A stretch of DNA of 4,140 bases from a virus (lineage: Duplodnaviria; Heunggongvirae; Uroviricota; Caudoviricetes), in IMG/VR virus record IMGVR_UViG_3300029007_000047; one strand, written 5' to 3'. The notes below the pieces were generated by a model. That model did not search any database. It was given only the letters and a program-made list of their open reading frames with translations, and had not been told where the DNA came from. The translations under genes were made by a program, and so were the position numbers. Positions 1 to 4,140 of this stretch are shown in pieces (position 1 is the stretch's first letter; every line of letters begins with the position of its first letter).

Positions 1-273
1 GAAGTCGCTTCCGGTGTGATGAACACGAAAACCAAAGGTAAGGTCTCACTCAACCTGGAAATCGAACCATTTGATGAGAACCGTGTGAAAATCAAACACA
101 AACTCTCATATGTTCGCCCGACTAACCGCGGGAAAATTTCCGAAGAAGACACCACCGAAACGCCGATGTATGTCAATCGCGGTGGTCGCCTGACTATTCT
201 GCAGGAAGACCAGGGACAATTACTGACTCTTGCCGGTGAACCTGACGGAAAACTCCGCGCAGCAGGTCATTAA
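1..273 (+). CDS. Hypothetical phage protein, 5'-partial (reading frame open from window start; stop TAA 271..273)
   Basis: Frame 1 is open from nt 1 to the stop at 271..273. The first in-window starts are GTG 16 and ATG 19, with no convincing Shine-Dalgarno upstream, so the gene most likely begins upstream of the window. It is co-directional with and 65 nt upstream of the yfdQ-like gene, where K-12 CPS-53 has yfdP, but I do not recognise the sequence. Confidence 0.55.
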   Translation, partial: EVASGVMNTKTKGKVSLNLEIEPFDENRVKIKHKLSYVRPTNRGKISEEDTTETPMYVNRGGRLTILQEDQGQLLTLAGEPDGKLRAAGH

Positions 274-338
274 TATCGTTCTTAATTAACTGATTATTTA
301 TCTCATCACTGAATATCTTTATATAGTGAGGACTTATT

Positions 339-1173
339 ATGTCTCAGAACTTAGACGCAACCGCAATTAATCAAATCCATGCCCTTATTTCTGCTCAGGG
401 TGTTAATGAAATTATCAGTAAGATTGGTGCCGATGCTGTGGCATTGCCTGAGAACTTCCGCATTCATGATCTGGAAAAATTTAATTTAAATCGCTTCCGT
501 TTCCGTGGTGCGCTTTCCACTGCCAGCATCGATGACTTTACCCGTTATTCTAAAGATCTTGCAGATGAAGGCACCCGCTGCTTTATCGATGCTGATAATA
601 TGCGTGCCGTCAGTGTGCTTAACCTGGGTACTATTGATGAACCAGGTCACGCAGATAACACCGCCACTCTCAAACTGAAAAAGACAGCACCGTTCTCTGC
701 TCTGTTGTCTGTTAATGGCGAGCGTAACTCCCAGAAATCACTGGCAGAATGGATTGAAGACTGGGCCGACTACCTTGTGGGCTTTGATGCTAATGGTGAC
801 ACCATTCAGGCAACAAAAGCGGCTGCGGCGGTCCGTAAAATCACGATTGAAGCAAACCAGACCGCTGATTTTGAAGATAATGACTTCAGCGGCAAACGCT
901 CCCTGATGGAGTCTGTCGAAGCGAAGACCAAAGACATTATGCCAGTGGCATTTGAATTTAAATGCGTTCCGTTTGAAAGCCTGAAAGAACGTCCGTTTAA
1001 ATTACGCCTCAGCATTATCACTGGCGATCGTCCTGTACTAGTTCTGCGCATTATTCAGCTGGNNNNNNNNNNNNNNNNNNNNNNNNNNNNNNNNNNNNNN
1101 NNNNNNNNNNNNNNNNNNNNNNNNATTCAAAGACAGCAAAGTAGAAACCTTTATTGGTACTTTCACCGCCTGA
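339..1173 (+). CDS. yfdQ: YfdQ-like prophage protein (DUF2303-type); 3' end uncertain because of the N-run
   Basis: ATG at 339 is preceded by GAGG (328..331) with a 7-nt spacer. An uninterrupted 241-codon frame runs to nt 1061; the N-terminus ([21 protein letters not shown]...) matches my recollection of E. coli K-12 CPS-53 YfdQ. The N-run 1063..1124 interrupts the 3' end. After it, a different frame reads [15 protein letters not shown] and stops at TGA 1171..1173, while the original frame would run to 1223 through a GC-rich hairpin. I chose 1173, but the true stop could lie inside the N-run. Confidence 0.75.
1063..1124. other. Run of 62 N (assembly gap or masked sequence)
   Basis: Directly visible as n characters; it removes the 3' portion of the yfdQ-like gene, and the reading frame cannot be carried across it. 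Confidence 0.99.
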
Positions 1174-1185
1174 TTTCATTACTGC

Positions 1186-1207
1186 AAATGCCCCTGCGGG
1201 GGCATTT
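1186..1207 (+). other. Perfect inverted repeat / stem-loop (9-bp stem AAATGCCCC, 4-nt loop TGCG, GGGGCATTT) between the yfdQ-like and yfdR-like genes
   Basis: AAATGCCCC (1186..1194) and GGGGCATTT (1199..1207) are exact reverse complements. No U-tract follows on either strand, so this is not a canonical intrinsic terminator. Confidence 0.5.
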
Positions 1208-1300
1208 ATGGAAACGTAATTGACTCAATAATCGCCGGATGGTGAGGGCTTCCTTTTACCAGAATTCAGCGCGGTGCAGCGCATATACGTGGAGAACAAA

Positions 1301-1876
1301 ATGTCATTTATTAAAACTTTTTCCGGGAAGCATTTTTATTATGACAGGATAAATAAAGACGACATCGTTATTAACGATATCGCGGTTTCTCTTTCAAATA
1401 TCTGTCGCTTTGCAGGACATCTTTCACATTTCTACAGCGTCGCCCAACATGCGGTGCTTTGCAGCCAACTGGTACCGCAGGAATTTGCTTTTGAAGCGTT
1501 AATGCATGATGCAACAGAAGCGTATTGCCAGGACATCCCCGCTCCACTGAAACGCCTTCTTCCTGACTATAAACAGATGGAAGAAAAAATAGACGCCGTA
1601 ATCCGTGAGAAATACGGGTTACCCCCGGTTATGAGTACGCCCGTGAAATATGCCGATCTCATCATGCTGGCAACAGAACGCCGCGATCTCGGGCTAGATG
1701 ATGGCTCTTTCTGGCCTGTGCTAGAAGGTATCCCGGCAACAGATATGTTCAAAGTGATTCCAGTGGCACCAAGCTATGCCTACGGGATGTTTATGGAACG
1801 TTTTAAAGAGCTGCATAAGATANNNNNNNNNNNNNNNNNNAGATACATAAGCAATCCTGACAGCGAAATTAACTAG
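1301..1876 (+). CDS. yfdR: YfdR-like HD-motif phosphohydrolase-family protein; 3' end uncertain because of the N-run
   Basis: ATG at 1301 is preceded by GGAGA (1291..1295) with a 5-nt spacer; the ORF-track start at 1274 is GTG with no SD. A 174-codon clean frame runs to nt 1822. It contains H-x3-H-x6-H (GHLSHFYSVAQHAV) and HD (LMHDATEAY) motifs typical of HD-domain metal-dependent phosphohydrolases. The N-terminus MSFIKTFSGKHFYYD matches my recollection of K-12 YfdR. The N-run 1823..1840 covers the expected C-terminus; the stop TAG at 1874..1876 is valid only if the frame is preserved across the gap. Confidence 0.8.
   Translation: MSFIKTFSGKHFYYDRINKDDIVINDIAVSLSNICRFAGHLSHFYSVAQHAVLCSQLVPQEFAFEALMHDATEAYCQDIPAPLKRLLPDYKQMEEKIDAVIREKYGLPPVMSTPVKYADLIMLATERRDLGLDDGSFWPVLEGIPATDMFKVIPVAPSYAYGMFMERFKELHKIXXXXXXRYISNPDSEIN
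1823..1840. other. Run of 18 N (assembly gap or masked sequence)
   Basis: Directly visible; it lies at the 3' end of the yfdR-like gene. Confidence 0.99.
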
Positions 1877-1915
1877 TGAAATAGTTTTGTAGCAAAAGAA
1901 ATGAGGTTATCAAAA

Positions 1916-2161
1916 ATGCTTCAAATGCTGACACTTGAGGAATGGGCTGCAGAAAAATTTAGGAGTAATCCTCCAAGTGTGTCCACATTGCGTCGTTATG
2001 CTAAGCAGAATTTATTTTGTCCACCGGCAATGAAACAAGGTCGACTGTGGCGAGTACGTGAGGACGCAGAGTTAGTTGGGGAATTAGTTACTCCAGTAAT
2101 CAAGAAAAGTGATTCTATTATTCTGCAAAGGATTTTAAGCAATGGCAGCCAGACCACGTAA
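1916..2161 (+). CDS. xis: Lambda-type excisionase (Xis)
   Basis: The translation MLQMLTLEEWAAEKFRSNPPSVSTLRRYAKQNLFCPPAMKQGRLW is collinear with the lambda Xis N-terminal region as I recall it (MYLTLQEW...R.LETVRRW....IFPPPVKDGREY). ATG at 1916 is preceded by GAGG (1903..1906); the in-frame ATG at 1901 lacks an SD and ATG 1925 is also possible. Stop TAA 2159..2161. The 3' end overlaps int by 20 nt, the classic xis-int arrangement. Confidence 0.85.
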   Translation: MLQMLTLEEWAAEKFRSNPPSVSTLRRYAKQNLFCPPAMKQGRLWRVREDAELVGELVTPVIKKSDSIILQRILSNGSQTT

Positions 2162-3269
2162 AAATAATGTTTCAGTACCTAACTTGTATCCGCTTTATAG
2201 CAGAAAAGTAAATAAAGTCTATTGGCGATATAAGCATCCAGTGACCGGGAAATTTCATTCGTTGGGCACAAATGAAGCTGAAGCTATTGCTATTGCCACT
2301 GAAGCTAACACTCGTCTGGCTGAGCAAAGAACCCGGCAGGTTCTAGCTATCAGTGATAGGATCGCAACCAGCAAAGGAAAAACTATAACAACATCATCAT
2401 GGTTAGAGCGTTACCAAGCTATTCAGGATGACAGGCTGAAAAGTGGTGATATAAAGCTCAACACCTATAAACAGAAAGCCAAACCAGTATCCTTGCTCAG
2501 GGAACGAGCAGGAATGAAGTTAATTTCATCCGTTGATGTAAGGGATATCGCACAATTGCTTGACGAGTATATCACTGCCGGGCAACCGAGGATGGCGCAA
2601 GTAGTCCGCTCCGTTCTAATTGATGTATTCAAGGAGGCACAACACTATGGGGAGGTCCCTCCTGGTTATAATCCAGCATTAGCGACCAAACAGCCCAGAA
2701 GAAAAATTACCCGACAACGGTTAAGTCTTGAAGAATGGCAAAAAATCTTTGATATCGCAGATGCCAGTCATCGTTATATGGGGAATGCCATGCTGTTAGC
2801 ACTGGTTACCGGTCAGAGGTTAGGTGATATCTCGCGTATGAAATTTAGCGATATTTGGGATGATCATCTTCACGTCATCCAGGAAAAAACCGGGAGCAAA
2901 ATCGCCATCCCGCTTTCCCTGCGCCTCAATGCAATTAACTGGAGTTTACGCGATGTAGTAGCCCGCTGCCGTGACTATGCAGTCAGCCCATACCTTGTAC
3001 ATTTTTTTCGTACGACTTCACAGGCTGAACGTGGCGCGCAGGTTAAAGCCAATACATTGACGATGAATTTCACTAAAGCGAGGGATTTGGCGGGAATTGA
3101 TTGGGGGGATGGAACTCCTGCAACATTCCATGAACAACGGTCTTTATCTGAACGTCTATACAAAGAACAGGGGTTAGACACACAAAAGTTGCTGGGACAT
3201 AAATCACCTAACCAAACAGCTCGATACCATGATGATCGTGGGAAAGATTGGGTTAAAGTAGCCCTCTGA
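2142..3269 (+). CDS. int: Lambda-family tyrosine integrase (site-specific recombinase), apparently intact
   Basis: 375-codon ORF. The N-terminal block (RPRKNNVSVPNLYPLY...WRYKHPVTGK) resembles the lambda Int arm-binding domain. Catalytic-domain blocks match lambda Int: LVTGQRLGDISRMKFSDI (Arg), QEKTGSKIAIP (Lys), TFHEQRSLSERLY (His-x-x-Arg), LLGHKSPNQTARYHDDRG (His and the nucleophile Tyr, codon 3225..3227). Stop TGA 3267..3269. Confidence 0.95.
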   Translation: MAARPRKNNVSVPNLYPLYSRKVNKVYWRYKHPVTGKFHSLGTNEAEAIAIATEANTRLAEQRTRQVLAISDRIATSKGKTITTSSWLERYQAIQDDRLKSGDIKLNTYKQKAKPVSLLRERAGMKLISSVDVRDIAQLLDEYITAGQPRMAQVVRSVLIDVFKEAQHYGEVPPGYNPALATKQPRRKITRQRLSLEEWQKIFDIADASHRYMGNAMLLALVTGQRLGDISRMKFSDIWDDHLHVIQEKTGSKIAIPLSLRLNAINWSLRDVVARCRDYAVSPYLVHFFRTTSQAERGAQVKANTLTMNFTKARDLAGIDWGDGTPATFHEQRSLSERLYKEQGLDTQKLLGHKSPNQTARYHDDRGKDWVKVAL

Positions 3270-3302
3270 CAAATGAAGGCTACTAGATAGCAGAAGACAC
3301 AT

Positions 3303-4140
3303 TTAGCGTACCGCTGGTTCTGCTTGAGCTGGCGGATCATTAGGTATGATCAAATTAAACTGACCACGAGCAACATGTCCGTTTTCGGTCACTTCTAAAT
3401 AGCTAATTCTTACTACCTCACCAGTCACAATAGCGGAGGCAAGCGCCTGTAACTCAACCGGGCGAGCAATATCCTCAGCTACTTTTATAGTAAAACTCTC
3501 TCCATTACTGACCCGGATCACACTTAAGTTTAACTCAGAGCTTGATATTCCGGATCGAGAGAGCCCCTTAATATAAAAGTTATCAAAGCGTTCTGTTCTT
3601 TCTCTGTCAACACTTTGCCTGTTTCGATAATCCTGAAGGGCTGCACCATCATATTGTTGATTTCCGATCTTTACGGACTCAGCATCTGACGCGACCGATT
3701 TAAGCAAAGAGGACTTTCCATCTTCACCATGTGCTTCAATTTCGCGGCTAAGACTAGTTTCTCCCCTACGTTTGACCTCTCTCCCCAACTCAAATGAGCG
3801 TGTCATACCATCTACTACCGTTTGAGTCGTCTGAGTTTGAGCATTTAAGTCTGCGGCATGATCTTGGCTATTTGTGTACAAATAATAGCAACCACCTACC
3901 GTCAAAGCGGTAATCAGTGCTAGCAAAATTGTCATTTTCTGAACGCCAGTCATACCTTCAAACGCTCCCGTGAGGAATGCAAGAAACTGATTAATGGTAC
4001 CTGACCAGTCAGTCTCTGAATCAGTAGAACCTTCCTTTATTTTAAATATAACATCCAAAGACTGTTTATCTTCATTAGTCAGCCTTTGTAAATTTGAGGT
4101 GCCATACTTCGCCAATGCATAAGCACGTTGAAATGACTCA
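3303..4140 (-). CDS. Uncharacterised membrane-anchored protein / candidate lipoprotein, 5' end beyond window (candidate prophage cargo gene)
   Basis: Long - strand ORF with stop TAA (complement of 3303..3305). The frame stays open to the window edge; the ORF-track start at 4115 is a TTG, not an ATG. An internal ATG (complement of 3951..3953) has GGGAG 11 nt upstream and begins MTGVQKMTILLALITALTVGGC, which has the shape of a lipoprotein signal peptide (basic n-region, hydrophobic core, Cys codon at 3888..3890 after VGG). Alternatively this is a signal-anchor of a larger bitopic protein. About 195 residues follow, charged and predicted soluble. I recognise no family. Rough hand counts give 37-39% G+C here versus 43-49% in the neighbouring genes. 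Confidence 0.8.
   Translation of the reverse strand, partial: ESFQRAYALAKYGTSNLQRLTNEDKQSLDVIFKIKEGSTDSETDWSGTINQFLAFLTGAFEGMTGVQKMTILLALITALTVGGCYYLYTNSQDHAADLNAQTQTTQTVVDGMTRSFELGREVKRRGETSLSREIEAHGEDGKSSLLKSVASDAESVKIGNQQYDGAALQDYRNRQSVDRERTERFDNFYIKGLSRSGISSSELNLSVIRVSNGESFTIKVAEDIARPVELQALASAIVTGEVVRISYLEVTENGHVARGQFNLIIPNDPPAQAEPAVR

What the first reader, a model, noticed from the sequence alone, without database searches (positions are those of the whole stretch)
3303..4140. Unassigned membrane-anchored / lipoprotein-type gene converging on the integrase: candidate prophage cargo (superinfection exclusion, defence or envelope modification)
Seen in sequence: a >270-codon - strand ORF ends 33 nt from the int stop. 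It contains one hydrophobic segment (MTILLALITALTV) followed by GGC-Y-Y, which reads either as a lipobox-type signal peptide starting at the internal ATG (3951..3953) or as a signal-anchor of a longer protein whose N-terminus is off-window. The ~195-residue C-terminal domain is charged/polar and matches no family I know. Established knowledge: the int-proximal end of lambdoid prophages is a recurrent site for moron/cargo genes, and phage-encoded lipoproteins and membrane proteins often mediate superinfection exclusion (for example Cor and Llp blocking FhuA, or Bor). Inference: this is a horizontally acquired accessory gene with an envelope-associated function. Because it runs off the window, it may be the last gene of a larger operon upstream of 4140.
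Basis: partly seen in the sequence, partly recalled or inferred. Interest (0 to 1): 0.7.

Follow-up and report, generated by a model that had tools for sequence, protein, structure and literature searches.

The report
Uncharacterised membrane-anchored prophage cargo gene
The ORF is the 3' four-fifths of a single 348-codon prophage accessory gene for a membrane protein of a large, unnamed family that repeatedly occupies the genome slots where temperate phages keep genes that exclude rival phages, so it is a good but untested candidate for a new exclusion protein.

Summary
A - strand ORF runs from the stop at 3303-3305 off the window end, 33 nt from the int stop, with one hydrophobic segment.

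With flanking sequence from identical E. coli genomes it is a stand-alone 348-codon gene (WP_050498773.1). It lies between intE and the icd attachment site of an e14-like prophage. It is neither a lipoprotein nor the end of an operon.

- **Architecture:** a conserved acidic N-domain of about 130 residues with no structural match, one predicted transmembrane helix, a helical hairpin and a C-terminal OB fold.
- **Family size:** 883 clusters at 50% identity in Proteobacteria and their phages, all "hypothetical", with no Pfam, NCBIfam or PADLOC model.
- **Position:** always a singleton. It sits most often between cI and N (the lambda rexAB slot), also between tail chaperone and tape measure (the HK97 gp15 slot), and here in the int-att slot. 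In other e14-like prophages that slot holds Lit, DarTG or a Septu-like pair.
- **Rarity:** 8 of 5426 E. coli genomes carry it, against 495 with this integrase type.

Best reading: a lysogen-expressed, membrane-anchored phage-exclusion protein. An entry block is slightly favoured over abortive infection. The function rests only on genomic position and architecture.

The parts
3303..4140 (-). 3' 838 nt of a 1047-nt stand-alone CDS (residues 71-348 plus stop; RefSeq WP_050498773.1, 'hypothetical protein'). The first 70 codons lie beyond the window.
   Evidence: 100% identical to 8 E. coli chromosomes; full CDS at L001 12034-13080 (-)
3954..4139 (-). Second half (residues 71-132) of the conserved, acidic N-terminal alpha/beta domain. 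This is the family signature region (QRAYA..KYGT.NLQRLTNEDKQ.LD..F.I.EGS).
3951..3953 (-). Met is present here in 95% of 186 family members.
   Evidence: conserved residue. An SD-like sequence upstream is strong in this clade only, so it is not a family-wide start.
3876..3935 (-). Single predicted transmembrane helix (residues 139-158, MTILLALITALTVGGCYYLY).
   Evidence: the only hydrophobic peak (Kyte-Doolittle 17-residue window, median 2.03 against 0.93 for the next best), at residues 127-143 in 98% of 186 members.: helix in the AF2 model
3849..3875 (-). Polar Q/T/S/N-rich linker after the helix (residues 159-167), low model confidence.
   Evidence: pLDDT below 50 for residues 154-173
3693..3848 (-). 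Two long helices forming a hairpin (residues 168-219).
   Evidence: H168-196 and H199-219; fast-evolving (mean pairwise identity 0.19)
3348..3677 (-). C-terminal beta-rich domain (residues 225-334). Its core (249-334; window 3348-3605) is an OB fold with the order b1-b2-b3-helix-b4-b5.
3270..3302 (.). 33-nt spacer between the convergent stops of int and the cargo gene.
2142..3269 (+). intE-type tyrosine integrase (lambda-type arm-binding domain plus catalytic domain) of an e14-like prophage that integrates in icd.
1916..2161 (+). xisE excisionase, overlapping int by 20 nt.

Best explanation
The gene encodes a single-pass inner-membrane protein carried as an independent accessory gene ('moron') by temperate phages. 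It is probably expressed in the lysogen and probably protects the lysogen against superinfecting phages.

The most likely layout places the conserved acidic N-domain in the cytoplasm. One transmembrane helix follows. The fast-evolving helical hairpin and OB fold would then lie in the periplasm.

The mechanism I commit to is superinfection exclusion at the genome-entry step. In this model the periplasmic hairpin and OB module binds a component of the incoming phage's ejection or tail-tip apparatus, or its inner-membrane entry site, and prevents DNA from crossing the inner membrane. The cytoplasmic domain would anchor or oligomerise the protein.

**Shown:** gene boundaries, rarity, prophage location, family size, single hydrophobic helix, OB fold, and positional equivalence to known exclusion genes.

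**Inferred:** lysogenic expression, topology, and any anti-phage activity or mechanism.
For: **1. Accessory and mobile**
- It is present in 8 of 5426 E. coli genomes, against 495 with the same integrase type.
- Relatives above 80% identity occur in Klebsiella, Lelliottia, Citrobacter, Enterobacter and Scandinavium, again between icd and int.

**2. The slot is a defence hotspot**
- K-12 e14 holds lit there, also convergent on intE.
- Other e14-like prophages hold DarT+DarG, or PtuA plus an HNH protein.

**3. Homologues sit in other classic exclusion slots, always as singletons**
- Of 34 distinct nearest-upstream neighbours, 16 are Peptidase_S24/HTH repressors on the same strand, 22-222 nt away.
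- At least 9 of 50 distinct downstream neighbours are lambda-type N proteins. That is the cI-X-N arrangement, matching lambda cI-rexA-rexB-N.
- Others lie between the tail chaperone (DUF6246) and the tape measure gene, the position of the HK97 gp15 moron.
- Others lie at prophage ends next to DinI and tail-fibre genes.
- Published work identifies cI-downstream genes (rexAB, bstA) as abortive-infection genes (PMC8585504). It identifies gp15 and SieA as inner-membrane blockers of genome entry (PMC3594210, PMC10883804).

**4. Architecture**
- One conserved hydrophobic helix is present.
- No enzyme family matches and no invariant polar residue is seen.
- The C-terminal half evolves faster than the N-domain in 90% of sequence pairs, as expected for a part that contacts phage proteins.
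- The C-terminal half is Cys-depleted (no Cys in 148 of 183 members), which fits export to the periplasm.
Against: - No experiment bears on this family and no characterised homologue exists. All functional evidence comes from genomic position and architecture.
- Topology is unresolved. K+R is slightly higher on the C-terminal flank of the helix (2.69 against 2.18 within 15 residues, p=0.0015), which runs against the N-in model.
- A conserved 130-residue cytoplasmic domain is not needed for a simple entry block. The known occupants of the two best-matching slots (rexAB, bstA, lit) are abortive-infection systems, not entry blockers.
- In Pasteurellaceae phages the homologue lies among early genes (Sipho_Gp157, AAA_24, Bro-N antirepressor), which is not an obviously lysogen-expressed position.
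- No consensus sigma-70 promoter was detected upstream of the gene in the e14-like prophage.
Confidence: 0.38

Rival explanations
1. Abortive infection by a one-polypeptide sensor-effector. The variable OB and hairpin module senses a phage component, either in the periplasm during ejection or in the cytoplasm if the topology is reversed. The conserved N-domain plus transmembrane helix then oligomerise into a lethal membrane lesion. This would be functionally like RexA+RexB, or like a single-helix holin.
For: - The commonest slot is exactly the rexAB slot, and the slot in this window is that of the Lit abortive-infection protease.
- A conserved 'effector' half paired with a fast-evolving 'sensor' half is the usual pattern for defence proteins.
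- The K/R bias leaves a cytoplasmic OB fold possible.
- BstA, another abortive-infection protein, lies downstream of cI.
Against: - There is only one moderately hydrophobic helix and no known toxic or pore domain.
- There is no homology to RexA, RexB or Lit.
- The OB domain is acidic to neutral (median pI 5.65), unlike typical nucleic-acid sensors.
- No partner gene is conserved next to it.
Confidence: 0.27
2. Lysogenic-conversion factor unrelated to phage exclusion. Under this reading the envelope protein alters stress tolerance, colonisation or serum resistance of the host, in the manner of Bor or Lom, or of the periplasmic OB-fold stress proteins of the YgiW type.
For: - It has a moron-like distribution at prophage ends and next to tail-fibre genes.
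Against: - The strong association with the repressor locus and with slots occupied by proven anti-phage genes is not expected for such factors.
- The family spans hosts with very different lifestyles: marine Marinobacter, Shewanella and Pseudoalteromonas, as well as Pasteurellaceae and enterics.
Confidence: 0.12
3. A function for the phage itself, such as a counter-defence protein, a modulator of the lysis-lysogeny switch (as reported for RexA), or a lysis or injection helper.
For: - It lies in an early-region position in Pasteurellaceae phages.
- The N-domain is very acidic (net charge about -6), reminiscent of DNA-mimic anti-restriction proteins.
- There is a weak PHROG resemblance of the helix and following segment to Rz-like spanins (E 0.1).
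Against: - It is sporadic among near-identical prophages, so it is dispensable.
- It occurs in many different modules rather than one functional module.
- It is not in a lysis cassette and has no Rz1-like partner.
- The spanin match is not significant.
Confidence: 0.1
4. Lipoprotein made from the internal ATG at 3951-3953, or a shorter helix-plus-C-terminal isoform made in addition to the full-length protein.
For: - Met133 is 95% conserved.
- In this clade a GGGAG lies 11 nt upstream of that ATG, at -7.2 kcal/mol, within the top 5-7% of in-gene positions.
- VGGC loosely resembles a lipobox.
Against: - The full-length ORF with its N-domain is conserved in all members.
- The Cys is not conserved outside close relatives.
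- The SD-like signal is absent in most subfamilies, with a median percentile of 0.33.
Confidence: 0.04

Closest known systems
Lambda RexA/RexB (abortive infection, transcribed with cI)
   Same: Homologues in phi458, mEp332, Moraxella phage Mcat17 and many viral contigs lie directly downstream of the S24 repressor on the same strand and upstream of N. This is the rexAB position. Both systems include a membrane component.
   Different: There is no sequence relationship: hhalign probability is below 1% to RexA and to RexB. This is one gene rather than two. It has one helix, whereas RexB is, from my own knowledge, a multi-pass protein. It also has an OB fold and an unmatched N-domain.
Lit protease of prophage e14
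   Same: It occupies the same slot in the same prophage type, between the icd attachment site and intE, and has the same convergent orientation to intE.
   Different: There is no match to the Lit model or to any peptidase family. Lit is, from my own knowledge, a soluble metalloprotease that cleaves EF-Tu. This protein has no metalloprotease signature.
HK97 gp15 moron (inner-membrane superinfection exclusion)
   Same: [quoted passage not shown] Both are single genes for inner-membrane proteins.
   Different: gp15 is 62 residues long and YebO-like. It has no detectable similarity to this family. This protein is 348 residues with two folded domains.
P22 SieA and other membrane-anchored injection blockers (from my own knowledge: lactococcal Sie2009, S. 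thermophilus Ltp)
   Same: These are prophage-expressed single membrane proteins that act without partners, and they are often encoded next to int or the repressor (PMC10883804).
   Different: SieA is about 160 residues with three predicted helices. No homology could be tested because no model was available, and the architecture differs.
BstA (prophage abortive-infection protein downstream of cI)
   Same: It is a single gene conserved downstream of the prophage repressor and presumed to share the repressor's promoter (PMC8585504).
   Different: BstA is a soluble protein that localises to phage DNA replication sites. Here there is a transmembrane helix and no BstA or KilA-N match.
Periplasmic OB-fold proteins (SilF/CusF, YgiW/BOF, AB5 toxin B subunits)
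   Different: Sequence identity is only 4-15%. Cytoplasmic OB folds (AsnRS, SSB, PriB, RPA) score nearly as well. Ligand-binding residues were not compared.
T4 holin T (from my own knowledge: one transmembrane helix with a large periplasmic domain that receives the superinfection signal through RI)
   Same: It is a precedent that a single-helix protein with a large periplasmic domain can both respond to superinfection and make lethal membrane lesions.
   Different: No similarity was tested or expected. T has only a short cytoplasmic N-terminus, and it is a lysis protein rather than prophage cargo.

Membership tests
Bacterial lipoprotein (lipobox signal peptide) | Signal peptide at the true N-terminus of the precursor | tested here: not met
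   The hydrophobic segment starts at residue 139 of 348. The upstream 132 residues form the best-conserved domain of the family.
Bacterial lipoprotein (lipobox signal peptide) | Invariant Cys at +1 of the lipobox | tested here: not met
   Cys154 is present only in relatives above about 53% identity. More distant members have G, T, W or Y at that position.
Lambda RexA/RexB | Sequence homology to RexA or RexB | tested here: not met
   hhalign of the family profile gives probability 0.4% against RexA and 0.1% against RexB. There is no PADLOC hit.
Lambda RexA/RexB | Located downstream of cI, co-oriented, upstream of N | tested here: met
   This is met for homologues, not for the window copy. 16 of 34 distinct upstream neighbours are S24 repressors, and at least 9 of 50 distinct downstream neighbours are N proteins.
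Lambda RexA/RexB | Two-gene sensor plus membrane-protein system | tested here: not met
   The gene is always a singleton and no neighbour is conserved across contexts.
Lit (peptidase U49) abortive infection | Match to the Lit or peptidase model | tested here: not met
   K-12 Lit hits the PADLOC Lit model at 8.5e-124, while the target has no PADLOC or Pfam hit.
HK97 gp15 / YebO | Sequence homology and small size (about 60 residues) | tested here: not met
   hhalign probability is 0.3%, and the sizes are 348 against 62 residues.
OB-fold superfamily (structural class) | Five-stranded barrel with a helix between strands 3 and 4 | tested here: met
   [not shown]
T2SS GspM (label given to the mEp332 homologue by its depositors) | Match to the Pfam GspM (T2SSM) family | tested here: not met
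   No T2SSM hit at E<=0.01 in any of 42 diverse members, including the mEp332 protein.
Rz-like i-spanin | Significant profile match, location in a lysis cassette, and an Rz1 partner | tested here: not met
   The PHROG spanin matches have E 0.1-0.14 over about 50 residues only. No observed context is a lysis cassette.
PHROG phrog_6191 (unknown function) | Full-length profile match | tested here: met
   E 3.8e-42, covering residues 3-330 of 348 against profile positions 5-327 of 338. The family has no assigned function.
Single-pass (bitopic) inner-membrane protein, N-in/C-out | One hydrophobic helix of transmembrane length | tested here: met
   The Kyte-Doolittle 17-residue peak has a median of 2.03 at residues 127-143 in 98% of 186 members, with no second peak.
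Single-pass (bitopic) inner-membrane protein, N-in/C-out | Orientation (positive-inside rule, reporter fusions) | tested here: inconclusive
   The K+R bias weakly favours C-in. Cys depletion of the C-terminal half and the absence of an N-terminal signal peptide favour N-in. Dedicated predictors and fusions were not available.

The most novel reading that the evidence does not exclude
The family could be an 'outside-in' antiviral sensor. In this reading a rapidly evolving periplasmic hairpin-plus-OB module detects the ejection machinery of a superinfecting phage before or while its genome crosses the inner membrane. It then signals through a single transmembrane helix to a conserved cytoplasmic domain of a previously unseen fold, which stops the infection. 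That would be a new, widespread single-gene immunity principle (883 clusters at 50% identity) sitting in the rexAB, lit and gp15 slots of temperate phages.
Probability: 0.15. Interest if true: 0.85.

Novelty: new variant of a known kind. Interest (0 to 1): 0.62.

Why it matters
Prophage slots such as cI-N (rexAB, bstA), int-att (lit) and chaperone-tape measure (gp15) have each yielded textbook exclusion systems. This family occupies all three. It is large and spans Gamma- and Betaproteobacteria and their phages. Yet it has no Pfam or DUF, NCBIfam or PADLOC model and no name.

If it excludes phages, it adds a new single-gene, membrane-anchored system with an unmatched N-terminal fold. It would also be easy to test, because natural carriers (phi458 and mEp332) infect E. 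coli K-12 derivatives.

The analysis also shows that the intE-icd junction of e14-like prophages is a swap-in defence hotspot with further uncharacterised occupants.

Tried and rejected
- **Lipoprotein or internal start.** I rejected this as a family feature. The Cys is not conserved. The SD-like signal upstream of Met133 is not conserved, although it is strong in this clade.
- **Truncated operon.** Rejected after extending the sequence.
- **Core chromosomal gene.** Rejected, since only 8 of 5426 genomes carry it.
- **Family libraries.** Pfam, NCBIfam and PADLOC gave nothing for the target or for 42 diverse members.
- **PDB sequence searches.** They gave only insignificant hits. These were eS12 at E 0.25, and MotB at E 0.016 over the helix and following segment. 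Other single-pass anchors also appeared.
- **GspM and spanin labels.** Neither was reproduced.
- **BFVD Foldseek.** It returned only uncharacterised phage proteins.
- **Tools or searches that failed.**
  - The AFDB50 library was unavailable.
  - The profile of the N-domain alone in the word-indexed protein search returned one trivial hit.
  - The genome-contig scan found only one species-representative genome, Scandinavium hiltneri.
- **Literature.** Searches for mEp332, phi458, the record accessions and phrog_6191 found no functional study of this gene.
- **Nucleic-acid-binding OB fold.** Not favoured, because the domain is acidic to neutral.

Full report
**1. Observation**

On the - strand the frame from window 4139 down to 3306 is open for 278 codons and ends at the stop at 3303-3305. 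There is no stop before the window edge.

The integrase ORF (2142-3269, + strand) ends 33 nt away, so the two genes converge as described.

The segment MTILLALITALTVGGCYYLY is at 3876-3935. The ATG at 3951-3953 is the Met six residues upstream of it.

**2. True extent of the gene**

Window 3270-4140 is 100% identical to 8 of 5426 complete E. coli genomes.

In strain Ecol_545 the ORF is one annotated CDS of 1047 nt (348 residues, WP_050498773.1, 'hypothetical protein'). The window lacks its first 70 codons.

Upstream of its ATG lie 188 nt that contain the icd terminator, and then icd itself. It is therefore a single gene between intE and the icd attachment site of an e14-like prophage. The gene order is yfdP-yfdQ-yfdR-xisE-intE, then this gene, then icd. 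It is not the tail of an operon.

Its GC content (0.37-0.43) is well below that of icd (0.50-0.54).

**3. It is cargo in a defence hotspot**

The same integrase type occurs in 495 of 5426 genomes, but this gene occurs in only 8. The int-icd slot holds different genes in different strains:

| Strain | Slot contents | Evidence |
|---|---|---|
| K-12 e14 | ymfD, ymfE and lit; lit also converges on intE and hits the PADLOC Lit model at E 8.5e-124 | |
| EcPF40 | PtuA (E 4.8e-239) plus an HNH partner | |
| APEC O2-211 | DarT plus DarG | |

Relatives of the target above 80% identity in other genera are again flanked by icd and a convergent integrase.

**4. The family**

- No Pfam, NCBIfam or PADLOC model matches the protein. 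The only library hit is PHROG phrog_6191, of unknown function, over the full length at E 3.8e-42.
- The word-indexed search found 57 clusters, all in Enterobacterales and all 'hypothetical'.
- An exhaustive profile search found 883 representatives at 50% identity with E<=1e-3, of which 549 have E<=1e-10. Nearly all of the 150 listed are 310-375 residues and match over most of their length, so the architecture is uniform.
- Named members come from Marinobacter, Pseudoalteromonas, Shewanella, Vibrio, Photobacterium, Pasteurellaceae and Chromobacterium. A Moraxella phage also carries one.
- Scans of 42 diverse members against Pfam and PADLOC gave nothing consistent.

**5. Architecture**

An AlphaFold2 model of the 94%-identical Klebsiella protein has mean pLDDT 74.6 and pTM 0.60. 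It shows the following parts in order:
- an alpha/beta N-domain (residues 1-130);
- a helix over the hydrophobic segment;
- a low-confidence polar linker (154-173);
- two long helices (168-196 and 199-219);
- a beta-rich C-terminal domain.

Measures taken over 183-186 members:
- There is a single hydrophobic peak at residues 127-143 in 98% of members (Kyte-Doolittle 17-residue median 2.03; next best 0.93).
- The N-domain is the most conserved part, with mean pairwise identity 0.30 against 0.19-0.20 for the hairpin and OB fold. It is the higher of the two in 90% of pairs.
- Positions conserved at 80% or more are Gly, Pro, Trp, Phe, Leu, Met, Ile, Ala and one Ser. The pattern looks structural rather than catalytic.
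- The N-domain is strongly acidic (median pI 4.8). The OB domain is acidic to neutral (median pI 5.65).

The Cys of 'GGC' is confined to close relatives. Together with the conserved upstream domain, this rules out the lipobox reading.

Topology remains open. Two observations favour a cytoplasmic N-domain and an exported C-terminal half: there is no N-terminal signal peptide, and the C-terminal half has no Cys in 148 of 183 members. The K+R counts on the two flanks of the helix lean slightly the other way.

**6. Context across the family**

I examined 59 loci from phage genomes, IMG/VR contigs and bacterial contigs. I took the nearest ORFs on each side of the gene and scanned them against Pfam.
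- **Upstream:** of 34 distinct neighbours, 16 are Peptidase_S24/HTH repressors on the same strand, 22-222 nt away.
- **Downstream:** of 50 distinct neighbours, at least 9 are lambda-type N proteins, and 5 are convergent lambda-type integrases. The latter are the target's own clade.

The commonest arrangement is thus cI-X-N. In lambda that position is cI-rexA-rexB-N. It holds for phi458 (37% identity), mEp332 (24%) and Moraxella phage Mcat17.

Other positions were also found:
- between the DUF6246 tail chaperone and the tape measure gene, which is the HK97 gene 15 position;
- next to DinI and tail-fibre genes at prophage ends;
- between baseplate genes of Mu-like Chromobacterium prophages;
- in the early region of Pasteurellaceae phages.

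No neighbour is conserved across these contexts, so the gene behaves as a self-contained moron.

**7. What the slots imply**

- The literature describes the cI-N region as a mosaic hotspot that holds the abortive-infection systems rexAB and bstA. These are presumed to share the highly active repressor promoter in lysogens (PMC8585504).
[quoted passage not shown] - Lit is the e14 exclusion protease (the mechanism is from my own knowledge).

The family shows no homology to RexA, RexB, gp15 or Lit.

**8. Explanation and rivals**

I put about 0.65 on some form of phage exclusion. Within that, I split the probability as follows:
- **Entry block, 0.38.** There is precedent for single membrane-anchored proteins in lysogeny modules. 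There is no toxic domain. The presumably periplasmic half evolves fast.
- **Abortive infection, 0.27.** The best-matching slots hold abortive-infection systems. The conserved half paired with a variable half resembles an effector and a sensor.

The remaining readings are:
- a non-phage lysogenic-conversion role, 0.12;
- a function for the phage itself, 0.10;
- a lipoprotein or short isoform, 0.04.

All functional statements are inferences from position and architecture. Nothing here tests activity.

**9. Novelty**

The kind is well known: a prophage-borne, single-gene, membrane-anchored exclusion moron. The family and its domain combination (an unmatched acidic N-domain, one helix, a hairpin and an OB fold) are not described in any library or paper I could search. 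I rate it a new variant of a known kind. It is of moderate to high interest, mainly because it is large, unnamed, sits in three classic exclusion slots, and can be tested directly with phi458 or mEp332 in E. coli K-12.

Noticed in passing
window 1063-1124 and 1823-1840: Two masked runs of N (62 and 18 nt). One lies inside the yfdQ-like (DUF2303) ORF and the other at the 3' end of the yfdR-like HD hydrolase ORF. The unmasked sequence is available in the identical E. coli records (L001).
   Followed up: no
window 1906-1915; L001 13167-13200 (beyond the window end): GTTATCAAAA occurs three times in tandem, 11-13 nt apart, between the icd terminator and the start of the cargo gene. One more exact copy lies directly upstream of the xis ATG. 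There are 7 matches in 24.9 kb against 2.2 expected. The tandem copies are probably Int arm-type (P'-like) sites, which would place the cargo slot between the arm sites and int.
   Followed up: partly
[not shown]
   Followed up: partly
window 3951-3953 (Met133 codon) and 3954-3975: Met133, just before the membrane helix, is conserved in 95% of 186 family members. In this clade a GGGAG lies 11 nt upstream of it (-7.2 kcal/mol, top 5-7% of in-gene positions). An in-frame shorter product, like Esc within SieB (from my own knowledge), is not excluded for this clade. The signal is absent in most subfamilies.
   Followed up: partly
L082 2203-6628 and L083 244-2714 (Chromobacterium-type viral contigs): A distant family member sits inside a Mu-like baseplate module, between the gpP-type hub region and the small W-like ORF followed by Baseplate_J. 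This is another moron-like insertion in a late operon, here in a myovirus-type tail.
   Followed up: partly
L079 781-5023 (Pasteurellaceae-type viral contig): The family member lies 1.3 kb downstream, on the same strand, of a 615-residue AAA_15/AAA_21 ATPase (OLD/AbiEii-like). This hints at a small defence cluster inside a phage. Other Pasteurellaceae copies lie among early genes (Sipho_Gp157, AAA_24, Bro-N/P22_AR_C antirepressor).
   Followed up: no
window 16-1876: The yfdP-yfdQ-yfdR module known from prophage CPS-53 lies upstream of xis and int in this e14-like prophage. It comprises the DUF2303 protein and the HD-domain 5'-deoxynucleotidase-like protein. It recurs in other e14-like prophages, once interrupted by IS1 in strain LST200A.
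   Followed up: no
window 2142-2161: xisE and intE overlap by 20 nt in different frames, as annotated in the matching RefSeq records.
   Followed up: no
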